Shown here piece after piece: positions 35,390-42,092 of a stretch of 64,000 bases of DNA; the first letter of the stretch is position 1; every line of letters starts with the position of its first letter. The position numbers were made by a program, and so were the translations under genes. This DNA is from Escherichia coli. Its GTDB lineage: Bacteria; Pseudomonadota; Gammaproteobacteria; Enterobacterales; Enterobacteriaceae. The stretch is from assembly GCF_050920415.1 (NCBI RefSeq), contig NZ_CP169309.1; one strand, given 5' to 3'. The notes beneath the pieces were generated by a model, which did not search any database, was not told where the DNA came from, and saw nothing but the letters and a program-made list of their open reading frames with translations.

Positions 35390-36802
35390 ATGTCACTCAG
35401 TCGGCGTCAGTTCATTCAGGCATCGGGGATTGCACTTTGTGCAGGCGCTGTTCCCCTGAAGGCCAGCGCAGCCGGGCAACAGCAACCGCTACCCGTTCCG
35501 CCGCTGCTTGAATCTCGCCGTGGGCAACCGCTGTTTATGACTGTACAACGTGCGCACTGGTCATTTACGCCAGGGACACGCGCATCGGTCTGGGGAATCA
35601 ATGGTCGTTACCTGGGGCCGACTATCCGCGTCTGGAAGGGCGATGATGTTAAGCTGATCTACAGTAACCGCCTGACAGAAAATGTCTCAATGACGGTGTC
35701 TGGTTTACAGGTGCCTGGCCCGCTGATGGGCGGTCCGGCACGGATGATGTCGCCAAACGCTGACTGGGCACCCGTATTACCCATTCGCCAGAACGCAGCG
35801 ACATTGTGGTATCACGCTAATACCCCCAATCGCACGGCTCAGCAGGTCTATAATGGCCTTGCCGGAATGTGGCTGGTGGAAGATGAAGTCAGCAAGTCGC
35901 TGCCTATCCCAAACCATTATGGTGTGGATGATTTTCCGGTCATTATCCAGGATAAACGGCTGGATAACTTTGGTACGCCAGAATACAACGAACCGGGAAG
36001 CGGCGGCTTTGTTGGAGATACGCTGCTGGTCAACGGTGTACAAAGCCCGTACGTTGAAGTCTCGCGTGGCTGGGTGCGCTTGCGTCTGTTGAACGCGTCG
36101 AACTCTCGTCGCTATCAACTACAGATGAGCGATGGTCGCCCGTTACATGTGATTTCTGGCGATCAGGGATTCTTGCCTGCTCCTGTATCGGTGAAGCAAC
36201 TTTCGCTGGCACCGGGCGAGCGCCGCGAGATTCTGGTGGATATGAGCAACGGTGATGAAGTGTCGATCACCTGTGGTGAAGCGGCGAGCATTGTAGATCG
36301 TATTCGTGGCTTCTTTGAGCCATCCAGCATTCTGGTTTCTACGCTGGTGCTAACGCTGCGCCCGACCGGCCTTCTGCCGCTGGTCACAGACAGTCTTCCG
36401 ATGCGCTTGCTGCCAACTGAAATCATGGCCGGTTCGCCGATTCGCAGTCGCGATATCAGTCTGGGTGATGACCCAGGTATTAATGGACAACTGTGGGACG
36501 TCAACCGTATTGATGTCACCGCGCAGCAAGGAACGTGGGAACGCTGGACGGTACGCGCGGACGAGCCGCAAGCGTTCCATATTGAAGGCGTGATGTTCCA
36601 GATCCGTAACGTGAATGGCGCGATGCCATTCCCGGAAGACAGAGGCTGGAAAGATACCGTTTGGGTTGACGGACAAGTGGAGCTGCTTGTTTATTTCGGT
36701 CAGCCTTCCTGGGCGCACTTCCCGTTCTACTTCAACAGTCAGACGCTGGAAATGGCGGACCGTGGCTCGATAGGGCAACTGTTGGTCAATCCGGTACCGT
36801 AA
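35390..36802 (+). CDS. ftsP: Cell division protein FtsP (SufI), multicopper-oxidase-like Tat substrate
   Basis: 470-aa ORF; twin-arginine signal SRRQFIQASGIALCAGA. Confidence 0.9.
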   Translation: MSLSRRQFIQASGIALCAGAVPLKASAAGQQQPLPVPPLLESRRGQPLFMTVQRAHWSFTPGTRASVWGINGRYLGPTIRVWKGDDVKLIYSNRLTENVSMTVSGLQVPGPLMGGPARMMSPNADWAPVLPIRQNAATLWYHANTPNRTAQQVYNGLAGMWLVEDEVSKSLPIPNHYGVDDFPVIIQDKRLDNFGTPEYNEPGSGGFVGDTLLVNGVQSPYVEVSRGWVRLRLLNASNSRRYQLQMSDGRPLHVISGDQGFLPAPVSVKQLSLAPGERREILVDMSNGDEVSITCGEAASIVDRIRGFFEPSSILVSTLVLTLRPTGLLPLVTDSLPMRLLPTEIMAGSPIRSRDISLGDDPGINGQLWDVNRIDVTAQQGTWERWTVRADEPQAFHIEGVMFQIRNVNGAMPFPEDRGWKDTVWVDGQVELLVYFGQPSWAHFPFYFNSQTLEMADRGSIGQLLVNPVP

Positions 36803-36852
36803 TGGACCAATTCAATGCCCCACAGAGTGGTGGGGCGATACAAGGATGAATC

Positions 36853-38277
36853 ATGGATGGCATGGGATGGATGATTATTTTGGTACTTCCCTTTCTTTGG
36901 ATGGGCTATGGACTGGCGTTGTTAATCATAACGGGGTGCGCTTTTGAATCTAAGAGGATTCGTCGCATTCTGCTATGGGGTGTTGCGCCCCAGTTTATTA
37001 TTCTTTGTATTACGACCTTATTGCTTTATTGGATTAACTCTCGGTTAATTTATGTTTTTGTCTTTTTTCAGCCAGTTTTATGCATCACTACGGCAATTTT
37101 TTTGTTTGCTGGTAAAAAAACACAATATTCCAGATTGCTGTTTACTCTGTCTCATGTGATTTTTCTTGCTGGAGTTTTATATCAGGGGCATAGGGAAAAT
37201 CTGCAACACATAATTAATAGCGACTGGAAGGAATATAAAATAACGCGTTTATTTGAGCAAGTGCAGGACAATGGAGCGCATGCGCTGAATAACGATGTAA
37301 CTTGTTCAGAATTAATGCAACTACTCACCCTGGCAGCGGAACGTGATGACGTCAAAGAAGAGACGTTACGTACTCTTATTGCAAAGAGAGTATCGCCATT
37401 TCTGACAATGTCAGATAACTGTACGGGTGAGGATTCAGTAGAGATTTATTCTGTAGATACTACACCTTTTATGGCGGCTATTCAGAATCATAATATACAT
37501 TCTGTTCGTTTTTTTAGTCAATTGCTTATGGGAAACTCACCAAAAGCAAAAAATAATCGTGACATTGTGCGCCGGGCAAACCCTTTGATCGAAGTGTATA
37601 AATATAGTCATGGTTCAAAAAAACAACGTAACTCAGGGTTAGAAATAAGTAAGCAATTAATGGCTATTATGCCAGAACTATTAACAGATGCCGTCTGGCG
37701 TGCCGTGCTCAATGTATATGATGCCGATGCAGCACGATGGTTCTGGCGTAAGCAACCACCAGAAAATCGGTTGTATCGCTTAAAGGCTATGGCATTAATA
37801 CCACAAACAGATGCGCTGTTGGCAGAGATTCGACATACTCCAGAGGTACTGAATATCTCGTCTGAGGGGGACCTGAATGAAGAGGAGTTTCTCCATTTCT
37901 TAATTTATGGAGGAGATACCGCTGTAATACATGCACTGGTTGAAAAAGGAATAGTTAACTGGCAGCACCTTATGAACATTGAGGGGTTTGATAAGGACCC
38001 CTTAATATGGTCTATTTCAAAACTGGGAGAAAACGACAATGACCGGGAGGTTTTGGCATTAATTATTCATGATATTAATGCGCAAAACGCACTGCCGGAG
38101 GAACGCATTGCCAAATATTTAACGTGGACGGGAGCAATGGGCGAGATTTTTTTAAAGGCGGGCGTACATTGTGATAAGTTATATGCGGCAATTGAGTCCG
38201 ACAAAAAGCGAAATAATGGCATGTATAGTCAAAACGCCAGGGAAGAAGTGGATCGCGTATGTACGCCCACAAAATAG
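36853..38277 (+). CDS. Hypothetical polytopic membrane protein with C-terminal ankyrin-like repeats (accessory)
   Basis: 474-aa ORF; N-terminal ~110 aa with 3-4 hydrophobic helices; downstream motifs resembling ankyrin repeats (TPFMAAIQNHNIHSVRFFSQLL; DKDPLIWSISKLGENDNDREVLALIIHDINAQN); visibly AT-rich. Confidence 0.6.
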   Translation: MDGMGWMIILVLPFLWMGYGLALLIITGCAFESKRIRRILLWGVAPQFIILCITTLLLYWINSRLIYVFVFFQPVLCITTAIFLFAGKKTQYSRLLFTLSHVIFLAGVLYQGHRENLQHIINSDWKEYKITRLFEQVQDNGAHALNNDVTCSELMQLLTLAAERDDVKEETLRTLIAKRVSPFLTMSDNCTGEDSVEIYSVDTTPFMAAIQNHNIHSVRFFSQLLMGNSPKAKNNRDIVRRANPLIEVYKYSHGSKKQRNSGLEISKQLMAIMPELLTDAVWRAVLNVYDADAARWFWRKQPPENRLYRLKAMALIPQTDALLAEIRHTPEVLNISSEGDLNEEEFLHFLIYGGDTAVIHALVEKGIVNWQHLMNIEGFDKDPLIWSISKLGENDNDREVLALIIHDINAQNALPEERIAKYLTWTGAMGEIFLKAGVHCDKLYAAIESDKKRNNGMYSQNAREEVDRVCTPTK

Positions 38278-38295
38278 GAGCAGTTTGGGGCGGTT

Positions 38296-39213
38296 AAGGG
38301 ATAAAAAATAAATGCCTTTCGCTATCTGTCAGGGCGAATCTCACCATTTGCTATACCTTCCATTGGCGATGAACAGTATTCTACACGCACTTTTTTTACG
38401 ATTGCGTTGAAGCATTACAACGCCCGCGCCATCCGCGCGTTTAGCCGCTTTCTGCAAGGAAATTCCTCAAAAGCGTAGGAATATCGCGCGATTGTTCATC
38501 AAAAAAATCCACTGCAGCAGATGTACCGGGGAATAAGTTTGCCAATTCGTTTTAGTGAAGAAGAGATCGCCCGCCACATTGTTGCCGCTCGCGAGATAAG
38601 CCTCACCTTGCTGCCCCTGATGCCAGAATTATTAAACGAAGAGGCGTATGAAAATGTCATTGATGCTAATGACAGCGCAACGCTGAAGGCTTTTTGGCAG
38701 ATCCAGCTGCCGCCCACGCCGGTTTTACGCCTGGAAACGATGTCGGTAATTCCCATGACAGCGGCACTGGTTCAACAGGTGAGGGAGTCACCAAAGCGGC
38801 TTGAACTGGAAGATAAAAGTGGCAGGACAGTACTAACTTACATCGTGCGCTTTGGGAATATTGCCGCAGTACAGGCACTGATTGACGCTAATCTGATCGA
38901 CTGGCAACGGCTCCGCCAATCGACAGGAAGGTCAACACCATTATTACTGGCGATCTGGCGACAAAAATACGACGATGATTATGTAATCTTCCCATTGATT
39001 TTAAAGGACATGCTGGCAAAAAATGCGCCACCCTCAGCAGAGGAAATAATGAACTGCATTAAGGATGGTATGACCGCAGATGATTTTTTATCTGCCGGAA
39101 TGAGCAACACGCAATTCTGTTCTGCGATTGAACAAAGCCTCCAGGCGAAAACGTCAGTATTACCGGCGAATCGATTACGCCATCTGCAATCCTCGCGGTG
39201 TGCAAAGCTGTAA
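38296..39213 (+). pseudogene. 5'-truncated, amber-interrupted paralogue of the upstream ankyrin-like gene
   Basis: Track ORF 38521..39213 (230 aa) aligns to the C-terminal half of the 474-aa protein; the same frame upstream reads ...TRTFFTIALKHYNARAIRAFSRFLQGNSSKA-TAG(38476..38478)-EYRAIVHQKNPLQQ-M..., matching TPFMAAIQNHNIHSVRFFSQLLMGNSPKAKNNRDIVRRANPL of the full-length gene. Confidence 0.5.
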
Positions 39214-39328
39214 CCAACCGGAAGTTAAGTCATCCGCTGAAAACATCGCATTAACTTTTCGATTTCTCTTTCGTTCCGGCTTATAATCCCCGGCCTTTGA
39301 TTATTTTTTTATCATTTCTGGAAGCAAA

Positions 39329-41548
39329 ATGAGCTCTATCTCCCTGATCCAACCGGATCGCGACCTGTTCTCCTGGCCGCAGTACTGGGCCGCCTGTTTT
39401 GGACCGGCACCGTTTTTGCCGATGTCTCGTGAAGAGATGGATCAACTTGGCTGGGATAGCTGCGACATCATTTTGGTTACTGGCGACGCGTATGTCGATC
39501 ACCCAAGCTTCGGGATGGCGATTTGCGGTCGTATGCTGGAAGCGCAGGGCTTCCGTGTCGGGATCATCGCCCAGCCAGACTGGAGCAGCAAAGACGACTT
39601 TATGCGTCTGGGTAAACCGAATCTGTTTTTCGGTGTTACTGCTGGCAACATGGACTCGATGATCAACCGCTATACTGCCGATCGCCGTTTACGTCATGAC
39701 GATGCCTACACGCCGGATAACGTTGCGGGTAAGCGCCCGGATCGCGCCACACTGGTTTACACCCAACGTTGTAAAGAGGCGTGGAAAGATGTGCCGGTGA
39801 TCCTCGGCGGTATTGAGGCTAGTTTGCGTCGTACCGCGCATTATGATTACTGGTCTGATACCGTGCGCCGTTCCGTGCTGGTGGATTCCAAAGCCGACAT
39901 GCTGATGTTCGGTAACGGTGAGCGTCCGCTGGTGGAAGTGGCGCATCGTCTGGCGATGGGTGAGCCGATTAGTGAAATCCGCGATGTGCGTAATACTGCG
40001 ATTATCGTAAAAGAGGCGTTGCCAGGCTGGAGCGGCGTGGATTCCACCCGTCTCGATACCCCAGGGAAAATCGACCCGATCCCGCATCCGTATGGCGAAG
40101 ATCTGCCGTGCGCGGATAACAAACCTGTTGCGCCGAAAAAGCAGGAAGCGAAAGCCGTAACCGTGCAGCCGCCGCGCCCGAAACCGTGGGAAAAAACCTA
40201 CGTATTGCTGCCTTCTTTCGAGAAAGTGAAGGGCGATAAAGTGCTGTACGCCCATGCTTCGCGCATTCTGCACCACGAAACCAACCCTGGCTGCGCCCGC
40301 GCATTGATGCAAAAACACGGCGACCGCTATGTGTGGATCAACCCGCCTGCTATCCCGCTTTCTACCGAAGAGATGGACAGCGTCTTTGCGCTGCCGTACA
40401 AGCGCGTGCCGCATCCGGCTTACGGTAATGCCCGAATTCCGGCTTACGAAATGATCCGTTTCTCGGTCAACATTATGCGTGGCTGCTTTGGCGGCTGCTC
40501 TTTCTGCTCTATTACCGAGCATGAAGGTCGCATTATTCAGAGCCGTTCGGAAGATTCGATCATCAACGAGATTGAAGCGATCCGCGACACCGTGCCAGGC
40601 TTTACGGGCGTGATTTCCGATCTCGGTGGGCCAACTGCCAACATGTATATGTTGCGCTGCAAATCGCCGCGCGCCGAGCAGACTTGCCGCCGTTTATCGT
40701 GCGTTTACCCGGATATTTGTCCTCATATGGACACTAACCACGAACCGACGATCAACCTCTATCGCCGCGCGCGTGATCTGAAAGGCATTAAAAAGATCCT
40801 CATCGCTTCCGGCGTGCGTTATGATATCGCCGTGGAAGATCCGCGCTATATCAAAGAGCTGGCGACCCATCACGTTGGCGGTTATCTGAAGATTGCCCCG
40901 GAACATACCGAAGAAGGGCCGTTATCGAAGATGATGAAGCCGGGCATGGGCAGCTATGACCGCTTTAAAGAGCTGTTCGATACTTACTCGAAACAGGCAG
41001 GTAAAGAGCAATATCTGATCCCGTATTTCATCTCCGCACACCCGGGTACGCGTGATGAAGATATGGTGAATCTGGCGCTGTGGCTGAAAAAGCATCGCTT
41101 CCGTCTCGACCAGGTACAGAACTTCTACCCGTCGCCGTTGGCTAACTCCACCACCATGTATTACACCGGGAAAAACCCGCTGGCGAAGATTGGTTACAAG
41201 AGTGAAGACGTCTTCGTACCGAAGGGCGACAAACAGCGTCGTTTGCATAAAGCGTTGTTGCGTTACCACGATCCGGCAAACTGGCCGTTAATCCGTCAGG
41301 CGCTGGAAGCGATGGGTAAAAAGCATCTGATTGGCAGCCGTCGTGATTGCTTAGTGCCTGCGCCAACCATTGAAGAGATGCGCGAAGCCCGCCGTCAGAA
41401 CCGCAATACCCGTCCGGCGTTGACTAAACATACGCCGATGGCGACCCAGCGTCAGACACCTGCTACGGCAAAAAAAGCGTCGTCTACGCCATCTCGCCCG
41501 GTGAATGCTGGCGCGAAGAAACGCCCTAAAGCGGTGGCAGGTCGTTAA
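39329..41548 (+). CDS. ygiQ: Radical SAM protein YgiQ (UPF0313)
   Basis: 739-aa ORF; CxxxCxxC-type radical SAM cluster region ([10 protein letters not shown]). Confidence 0.9.
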
Positions 41549-41586: not shown

Positions 41587-41817
41587 TTATAACCTTGGTT
41601 TATAAGGACTGTTACGAACGTCTAAGCGGTAATGCGCTCTTGCTGTTTCGTCTTTAACTTGCTGAATTTCCGGACGCAGGGCGTCAATATCCTGTTGCAG
41701 TTGATTAATTTTGTTATTCAATGCCTGAATATCATGTTCCAGGTGTTCAATTTTGGCATTGCTGGTACAGCCAGCAAGACACAGCGCCAGCGGAATGGAT
41801 AAGATAAGTTTGTTCAT
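41587..41817 (-). CDS. Lpp-like small lipoprotein (Braun lipoprotein paralogue)
   Basis: About 76 aa from MNKLILSIPLALCLAGC (lipobox LAGC); mature part CTSNAKIEHLEHDIQALNNKINQLQQDIDALRPEIQQVKDETARAHYRLD resembles Lpp heptad repeats. Confidence 0.6.
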   Translation of the reverse strand: MNKLILSIPLALCLAGCTSNAKIEHLEHDIQALNNKINQLQQDIDALRPEIQQVKDETARAHYRLDVRNSPYKPRL

Positions 41818-41834
41818 TATGAATTCCAGAACCG

Positions 41835-42092
41835 TCATTCCGCATACATACGTAAGCAGCGCAGGCAATCGAAATAGTCCTGGGCGTCAAGGCGCGTATT
41901 GGCTCTGTTAGCGTCGGATTTGGCAGCATAGATTTGCGGGCGTAATGCTTTCATATCCTGCTCAAGTCGGGCAATTTTGGCATTTAACGTCTGTACGTTG
42001 CTCGCCAGCTGATTGACCTTTTGCTCATTGACGCAGCCGCTGAGCAAGCAGGTTGCCAGAACAACAGCCCCCACGGTGAAAATCGTTTTCAT
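41835..42092 (-). CDS. yqhH: Lpp-like outer membrane lipoprotein
   Basis: 85-aa ORF, lipobox LSGC, Lpp-like heptad region [32 protein letters not shown]. Confidence 0.75.

What the first reader, a model, noticed from the sequence alone, without database searches (positions are those of the whole stretch)
38296..38530. Second ankyrin-like gene is 5'-truncated and interrupted by an in-frame amber codon
The frame of the 230-aa ORF, extended upstream of its ATG (38521), keeps reading protein-like sequence homologous to the middle of the 474-aa gene (TRTFFTIALKHYNARAIRAFSRFLQGNSSKA / EYRAIVHQKNPLQQ versus TPFMAAIQNHNIHSVRFFSQLLMGNSPKAKNNRDIVRRANPL), broken only by a TAG at about 38476..38478 where the full-length copy has a Lys/Asn-rich stretch. 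This looks like a recent nonsense mutation in a partial tandem duplicate, leaving either a pseudogene or a shorter product restarted at the downstream Met.
Basis: seen in the sequence. Interest (0 to 1): 0.4.

Follow-up and report, generated by a model that had tools for sequence, protein, structure and literature searches.

The report
Decayed remnant of membrane ankyrin-like gene
The second ankyrin-like gene in this E. coli window is an ordinary decaying gene: a 519-base deletion removed its start and membrane anchor, and a later C-to-T change added the amber stop, while other strains keep the intact 469-residue gene.

Summary
The window is E. coli chromosome, in the order parC-plsC-ftsP-[gene 1, 474 aa]-[gene 2 remnant]-ygiQ. 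The frame upstream of ATG 38521 still encodes protein homologous to gene 1 (40% identity over 70 aa, E 2e-11). It is broken by TAG at 38476-38478.

Orthologous loci explain it. In at least five other complete E. coli genomes, gene 2 is an intact 469-aa paralog with four N-terminal transmembrane helices and an ankyrin-fold C-terminal domain. The window strain and two other complete genomes share a 519-bp deletion. The junction is at 38309-38313, with AAA microhomology. It removed the ribosome-binding site, the ATG and codons 1-169.

The TAG is CAG (Gln225) in every other allele, including those that carry the deletion. It is therefore a later, lineage-private nonsense mutation in sequence that was already untranslatable. 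It recurs in three independent assemblies, so it is not a sequencing error.

The "partial tandem duplicate" reading is wrong. The paralogs are only 26% identical, share no nucleotide similarity, and form an old tandem pair conserved next to ftsP in related genera. Gene 2 carries several independent lesions elsewhere in E. coli. Whether the residual 224/230-aa ORF is translated is untested. This is ordinary gene decay and of low interest.

The parts
36803..39253 (+). Two-gene accessory islet between ftsP and ygiQ. E. coli K-12 has a 34-nt hairpin spacer here instead. GC is about 40-48%, against about 54% in the flanks.
   Evidence: Present in 13 of 5426 complete E. coli genomes. Boundaries come from BLASTN against K-12. 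The same site is occupied in other Escherichia and in Superficieibacter.
36853..38277 (+). Gene 1: intact 474-aa paralog with four N-terminal transmembrane helices and a helical, ankyrin-like C-terminal domain.
   Evidence: ORF. PGAP annotates it as 'membrane protein' WP_000348902.1. It is 26% identical to full-length gene 2 over 468 aligned positions, E 1e-43.
38278..38309 (+). Remaining gene 1 to gene 2 intergenic sequence, up to the deletion junction. It contains the in-frame TAA at 38302-38304 that closes the remnant's frame upstream.
38310..38312 (+). Junction of the 519-bp deletion (AAA microhomology). The deletion removed gene 2's ribosome-binding site (AAGGA), its ATG and codons 1-169, which include all four TM helices.
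   Evidence: Alignment with L002, L004, L005, L007 and L012. The same junction is present in L003 and L006 and in L013-L015.
38311..38520 (+). Remnant of gene 2 codons 170-239. It has no start codon upstream and cannot be translated as part of the original protein.
   Evidence: E 2e-11 to gene 1; identical register to the intact 469-aa proteins.
38476..38478 (+). Amber codon TAG, equivalent to Gln225 (CAG) of the intact gene. It is a C>T change private to the window lineage.
   Evidence: CAG in L002-L005, including L003, which carries the deletion. Scored as codon 225. TAG is present in L013-L015.
38521..39213 (+). Residual 230-codon ORF, equal to gene 2 codons 240-469 (the ankyrin-fold part). 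PGAP annotates it as a 224-aa CDS starting at TTG 38539. It carries two lineage-private substitutions: A283E (38651) and A312T (38737, an invariant family column).
   Evidence: The product is UniProt A0A0L6ZW44, 'uncharacterized protein'.

Best explanation
Window 38296-39213 is the decaying 3' two-thirds of a once full-length gene. The ancestral state, still present in other E. coli, is a tandem pair of old paralogs between ftsP and ygiQ. Each paralog encodes a protein of about 470 aa with four N-terminal transmembrane helices and an ankyrin-repeat-fold C-terminal domain. In the lineage leading to this strain, a 519-bp microhomology-flanked deletion removed gene 2's ribosome-binding site, start codon and the whole membrane anchor (shown). 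Later, within a sub-lineage that includes this strain, CAG (Gln225) mutated to TAG in the already start-less remnant. Two amino-acid changes, one at an invariant family position, also accumulated downstream (shown). From this I infer that the locus is a pseudogene evolving without constraint. I also infer that the 224/230-aa ORF called by annotation pipelines is a leftover reading frame rather than a maintained gene. If it is translated at all, most plausibly from TTG 38539, the product would lack its membrane anchor. By the positive-inside rule it would also sit in the wrong compartment.
For: Intact 469-aa gene 2 at the orthologous site: L002, L004, L007, L008, L009 and L012 have open frames with no indels.

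Deletion of 519 bp with an identical junction in the window, L003, L006 and L013-L015.

The TAG is CAG in all four other alleles aligned (L002-L005), including the deletion-bearing L003. All four window-versus-L003 differences in the remnant are derived in the window lineage: one synonymous, two non-synonymous, one nonsense.

A312 is an invariant column of the 12-sequence family alignment.

The intact gene is under purifying selection across Escherichia (dN/dS about 0.18-0.20 against the 70%-identical ortholog), so it was a real gene.

Independent inactivating lesions of gene 2 occur in other E. coli: R178* (L025/26), T7>T6 and A7>A6 frameshifts (L022-L024), and a +1 C frameshift with a product seen on 101 contigs (L005/P0018).

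Gene 1 is also hit elsewhere, by IS1, a 5' frameshift and a 132-aa remnant.

No start codon lies between TAA 38302 and TAG 38476 except a TTG at 38407 without a Shine-Dalgarno match. ATG 38521 has none either.

K/R-rich loops between TM1-2 and TM3-4 and an acidic N-terminus predict an N-out/C-out topology, meaning a periplasm-facing ankyrin domain (crude).
Against: The residual 230-codon frame is still open, and PGAP annotates it as a CDS rather than a pseudogene.

TTG 38539 has SD-like pairing (-5.7 kcal/mol), comparable with real starts nearby.

The remnant is probably still transcribed from gene 1's promoter, because no convincing terminator separates them.

The deletion allele is common: its products are seen on hundreds of contigs. 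A neutral hitch-hiker or a tolerated, useful fragment would both produce that.

Divergence within the deletion clade is too low (4 changes in 900 bp) for a meaningful dN/dS test.

No expression data were available.
Confidence: 0.88

Rival explanations
1. The deletion created a new, shorter functional gene. A soluble 224-230-aa ankyrin-repeat protein would be translated from TTG 38539 or ATG 38521 and retained by selection. On this view the TAG merely trims useless upstream translation.
For: The downstream frame is open in all deletion-bearing alleles seen. An SD-like GGGGAA lies 5 nt before TTG 38539. PGAP calls it a CDS. The allele is frequent. There is a precedent that a cytosolic, anchor-less form of an ankyrin-repeat protein can have its own role: Tli of Enterobacter cloacae (bioRxiv 10.1101/2023.03.28.534661).
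Against: The window lineage has A312T at a family-invariant position, plus A283E, in this very ORF, with no synonymous change there. The fragment starts in the middle of the helical repeat domain at codon 240 or 246, cutting off repeats that are conserved between paralogs. SD-like energies this strong occur at 16% of positions in the region. Several unrelated lesions elsewhere in gene 2 indicate that E. coli tolerates its loss.
Confidence: 0.08
2. One reading: a recent partial tandem duplication of the 474-aa gene, later hit by a nonsense mutation.
For: The two ORFs are adjacent, on the same strand and homologous.
Against: The copies are only 26% identical at protein level. BLASTN finds nothing beyond chance 16-nt matches. 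Full-length second copies exist at the same site in E. coli, in other Escherichia (88%, 76% and 70% orthologs) and as adjacent pairs in Pseudocitrobacter. The truncation is a mapped 519-bp deletion.
Confidence: 0.01
3. The TAG is an assembly or sequencing error, or it is read through (suppressed), so the upstream part is still coding.
For: None beyond the a priori possibility.
Against: TAG is present in a complete genome identical to the window and in three independent draft assemblies, one with clearly different flanks. Even with readthrough, no start codon lies upstream, because the deletion removed it.
Confidence: 0.01

Closest known systems
Bacterial pseudogenes formed by a 5' deletion followed by secondary nonsense mutations (ordinary reductive gene decay of accessory genes)
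   Same: An intact ortholog exists at the same chromosomal site in sister strains. The start codon and N-terminal domain were lost through a microhomology-flanked deletion. Point lesions followed. Independent lesions occur in other lineages.
   Different: Nothing unusual. The only notable point is that annotation pipelines still call the leftover frame a CDS ('hypothetical protein' or 'ankyrin repeat domain-containing protein') rather than a pseudogene.
Ankyrin-repeat proteins (Pfam Ank clan; for example KANK ankyrin domains, designed ankyrin repeats 1N0R)
   Different: Pfam Ank models do not reach significance on single sequences (best E 0.0015). The domain is fused to a 4-TM N-terminal anchor. 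The family is confined to Enterobacteriaceae and has no characterised member.
Tli, the ankyrin-repeat immunity protein of the T6SS phospholipase Tle in Enterobacter cloacae (PDB 7UBZ; bioRxiv 10.1101/2023.03.28.534661)

Membership tests
Pseudogene / gene remnant | An intact full-length homolog exists at the orthologous position in related genomes | tested here: met
   A 469-aa open gene 2 lies between gene 1 and ygiQ in L002, L004, L007-L009 and L012.
Pseudogene / gene remnant | Loss of the translation start or an essential part of the coding sequence | tested here: met
   The 519-bp deletion removes the ribosome-binding site, the ATG and codons 1-169, which include all four TM helices.
Pseudogene / gene remnant | Premature in-frame stop relative to the intact allele | tested here: met
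   CAG>TAG at codon 225, window 38476-38478.
Pseudogene / gene remnant | Relaxed selective constraint on the remnant | tested here: inconclusive
   Derived changes in the window lineage are one synonymous, two non-synonymous (one at an invariant column) and one nonsense. L014 adds one non-synonymous change. This fits neutrality, but there are too few events to test.
Pseudogene / gene remnant | No functional protein product | not testable with these tools
   This needs Ribo-seq, proteomics or genetics. Only Shine-Dalgarno energies could be computed.
Ankyrin repeat proteins (Pfam Ank clan) | Significant match to Pfam ankyrin repeat models | tested here: inconclusive
   Gene 2: Ank_2 i-E 0.0015 at residues 329-387. 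Gene 1: E 1.7 to 9 only.
Ankyrin repeat proteins (Pfam Ank clan) | Profile-level similarity to proteins with solved ankyrin structures or to multi-repeat proteins | tested here: met
   The family profile hits the KANK2 ankyrin domain at E 2.9e-4 and 1N0R at 3.5e-3. Profile positions about 326-390 match up to 30 stretches in long repeat proteins.
Ankyrin repeat proteins (Pfam Ank clan) | Ankyrin repeat fold (stacked helix-turn-helix repeats) | tested here: met
Recent (partial) tandem duplication | High nucleotide or protein identity between the adjacent copies | tested here: not met
   26% protein identity and no nucleotide similarity.
T6SS Tli-type ankyrin immunity protein | Encoded next to a cognate effector gene | tested here: not met
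   The neighbours are ftsP and ygiQ in all loci. There are no PADLOC or NCBIfam toxin or immunity hits.
T6SS Tli-type ankyrin immunity protein | Sequence relationship to Tli (7UBZ) beyond the generic ankyrin fold | tested here: not met

The most novel reading that the evidence does not exclude
The interesting object is the intact family, not the pseudogene. It is an uncharacterised, Enterobacteriaceae-restricted tandem pair of 4-TM-anchored ankyrin-repeat proteins, and the repeat domain is predicted to face the periplasm. The pair is kept next to ftsP in several genera yet repeatedly lost or broken in E. coli and Salmonella. That pattern would fit a conflict-type role, for example orphan immunity against an envelope-acting effector. 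On that reading, the anchor-less fragment in this strain might retain a cytosolic activity, as cytosolic Tli does.
Probability: 0.06. Interest if true: 0.45.

Novelty: new member of a known kind. Interest (0 to 1): 0.12.

Why it matters
The main value is for annotation. RefSeq/PGAP and UniProt list the leftover frame as a normal protein: WP_001122589.1, WP_227456947.1 and A0A0L6ZW44, named 'ankyrin repeat domain-containing protein' or 'hypothetical protein'. Comparison with intact alleles shows it is the tail of a gene that has lost its start and membrane anchor. The locus is also a clean, datable example of stepwise decay, deletion first and nonsense second, at the variable ftsP-ygiQ spot. 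Finally, it points to a small uncharacterised family of membrane-anchored ankyrin-like proteins in Enterobacteriaceae. None of this would surprise a specialist.

Tried and rejected
- NCBIfam and PADLOC scans of both full-length proteins and of the 230-aa ORF found nothing meaningful.
- The Rfam scan of 36700-39400 at E<=1 gave only a chance miRNA hit. There is no RNA element in the remnant.
- The promoter/terminator consensus scan found no more sites than shuffled controls, and none positioned to drive the residual ORF.
- A literature search for the locus (ftsP, ygiQ, ankyrin) found nothing relevant.
- The word-indexed protein search found only close Escherichia and Superficieibacter relatives. 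The exhaustive profile search was needed to see the wider family.
- My automated lesion scan misaligned the deletion-bearing loci L003, L006, L013 and L014, because the extracted segment ran into gene 1. I ignored those rows and used the proper alignments.
- The 268-aa product P0017, which looked like another truncation, is only a late start call on an intact gene.
- dN/dS within the deletion clade was attempted, but there are only four substitutions.

Full report
**Where the window comes from and what the region holds**

The region is E. coli chromosome. Window 36700-39400 is 100% identical to strain MFDS1022581 (NZ_CP169399.1). The gene order is parC, plsC, ftsP (35390-36802), a 474-aa ORF (36853-38277), a 230-aa ORF (38521-39213) and ygiQ (39329-41548). 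PGAP annotates the first ORF as 'membrane protein'. It annotates the second as a 224-aa 'hypothetical protein' starting at TTG 38539.

**Checking the observation**

Reading upstream from ATG 38521 in the same frame gives KINAFRYLSGRISPFAIPSIGDEQYSTRTFFTIALKHYNARAIRAFSRFLQGNSSKA*EYRAIVHQKNPLQQ. The amber codon is at 38476-38478, and a TAA at 38302-38304 closes the frame upstream. These 72 codons align to residues 176-245 of the 474-aa protein with 40% identity (E 2e-11). The 230-aa ORF aligns to residues 264-461 (E 5e-27).

**What orthologous loci show**

The two-gene block (window 36803-39253) is rare. It is found in only 13 of 5426 complete E. coli genomes. K-12 has a 34-nt hairpin spacer in its place.

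In nine of the 13 genomes the matching stretch is 519 bp longer. I read five of them: LD91-1, GF4-3, PT62, AH04 and CX12. In all five the second gene is an uninterrupted 469-aa ORF. The other four have the same match length and annotation pattern.

The window strain, 2013C-4282 and WL297 share one deletion with an identical junction. On the left side it reads ...GGAATAAAAAATAAA|GGACTAAGCCATG..., and on the right ...CCTCTGAAAA|TGCCTTTCGC.... The two sides join through an AAA microhomology at window 38310-38312. The deletion removes the AAGGA ribosome-binding site, the ATG and codons 1-169, which is the whole transmembrane part. The remnant therefore begins at Asn170.

**The amber codon**

Position 38476 is C, giving CAG (Gln225), in all four other alleles aligned. 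That includes 2013C-4282, which carries the deletion. The order of events is therefore deletion first and nonsense second. The TAG fell in sequence that already had no initiation codon.

All four differences between the window and 2013C-4282 inside the remnant are derived in the window lineage:
- 38385: synonymous.
- 38476: nonsense.
- 38651: A283E.
- 38737: A312T.

Ala312 is invariant in a 12-sequence alignment spanning both paralogs.

The TAG is not an error. Three independent draft assemblies (L013-L015) carry it, and one of them has 52 differences in its flanks. The window-type product is on 83 contigs as the 230-aa call, including E. coli M863, and on 34 contigs as the 224-aa call. The CAG-type truncated products are on several hundred contigs.

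**Not a recent or partial duplication**

Full-length gene 2 and gene 1 align end to end at 26% identity (E 1e-43). BLASTN between them finds nothing beyond chance. Gene 2 orthologs of 88%, 76% and 70% identity exist in other Escherichia, and a relative of about 50% identity exists in Superficieibacter electus. The three loci I inspected (88%, 70% and about 50%) all lie immediately downstream of ftsP.

The exhaustive profile search found about 18 further family representatives of about 470 aa at E<=1e-30. The named ones come from Salmonella, Pseudocitrobacter (an adjacent pair), Atlantibacter and Enterobacter cancerogenus. Foldseek added Phytobacter and Klebsiella. All are 'hypothetical' or 'uncharacterized'. 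The pair is thus an old tandem arrangement.

Across Escherichia the shared 300 codons evolve at dN/dS of about 0.18-0.20. The intact gene is therefore a real gene under selection.

**Decay is recurrent**

Other E. coli carry independent lesions in gene 2:
- CGA>TGA at codon 178 (L025/26).
- A T7>T6 frameshift (L022).
- An A7>A6 frameshift (L023/24).
- A +1 C frameshift in EC2641, whose 333-aa product is seen on 101 contigs.

Gene 1 is also hit elsewhere: an IS1 insertion near its 3' end (EC2641), a 5' frameshift (L018) and a 132-aa remnant (L010). Split forms of 130 + 310 aa are common in Salmonella as well. The homopolymer frameshifts in drafts could in part be sequencing errors. The nonsense, the IS insertion and the deletion cannot.

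**What the protein is**

Pfam gives only a marginal Ank_2 hit (E 0.0015, residues 329-387 of gene 2). NCBIfam and PADLOC give nothing.

A crude hydropathy and charge count puts K/R in the TM1-2 and TM3-4 loops and shows an acidic N-terminus. By the positive-inside rule this predicts N-out/C-out, meaning a periplasm-facing repeat domain. This is an inference and was not tested with a dedicated predictor.

**Can the leftover ORF be expressed?**

The evidence is weak in both directions:
- ATG 38521 has no Shine-Dalgarno complementarity (+1.6 kcal/mol).
- TTG 38539 has GGGGAA 5 nt upstream (-5.7 kcal/mol), similar to real starts nearby. However, 16% of positions in the region score as well.
- No terminator separates the remnant from gene 1, so it is probably still transcribed.
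- Any product would start in the middle of the repeat domain and would lack the anchor.
- In this lineage the product would also carry a change at an invariant residue.

I rate a maintained function at under 10%.

**Verdict**

This is an ordinary, well-documented case of stepwise pseudogenisation of an accessory gene at the variable ftsP-ygiQ site. Its interpretation is right about the nonsense mutation and the pseudogene. It is wrong about the origin of the truncation and about the age of the duplication.

Noticed in passing
window 36803-39253; L016 (K-12), L017 (SF-088), L010: The ftsP-ygiQ intergenic site is a variable spot. K-12 has only a 34-nt hairpin spacer. SF-088 and the Escherichia contig L010 carry a TRAP-transporter, Ldh, ADH and mannitol-dehydrogenase island there. 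In L010 that island sits next to a degraded gene 1 and an intact gene 2.
   Followed up: partly
L005 (EC2641) 2021-2796: An IS1B element is inserted just before the stop of gene 1, changing its C-terminus (annotated as 478 aa). The same strain also has a +1 C frameshift in gene 2.
   Followed up: partly
L025/L026, L022, L023/L024, L018: Further independent lesions occur in other E. coli assemblies. Gene 2 has R178* and T7>T6 and A7>A6 homopolymer frameshifts. Gene 1 has a 5' frameshift in L018. The homopolymer cases might be draft-assembly errors.
   Followed up: partly
P0009 (Escherichia whittamii gene 1, 483 aa); equivalent to window 38275-38304: In E. whittamii the gene 1 stop codon is lost. 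The protein reads through ...DVQFGAVKG to the TAA that corresponds to window 38302-38304.
   Followed up: no
window 41587-41868 (-) and 41835-42092 (-): Two adjacent small Lpp-like lipoprotein genes lie downstream of ygiQ: an 'LPP leucine zipper domain-containing protein' and yqhH. The related Escherichia contig L012 has only one at this position.
   Followed up: no
Salmonella family members (clusters of P0038, P0030; UniProt Q8Z3P6/Q8Z3P5 in S. Typhi): Homologs in Salmonella enterica are often split into pieces of about 130 + 310 aa, or 327 + 230 aa. This suggests the same family is also decaying in Salmonella lineages.
   Followed up: no
window 36750-38500: Gene 1 is markedly AT-rich (GC about 37-43%) compared with gene 2 (about 48%) and the core flanks (about 54%), although the two are paralogs at one locus.
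   Followed up: no
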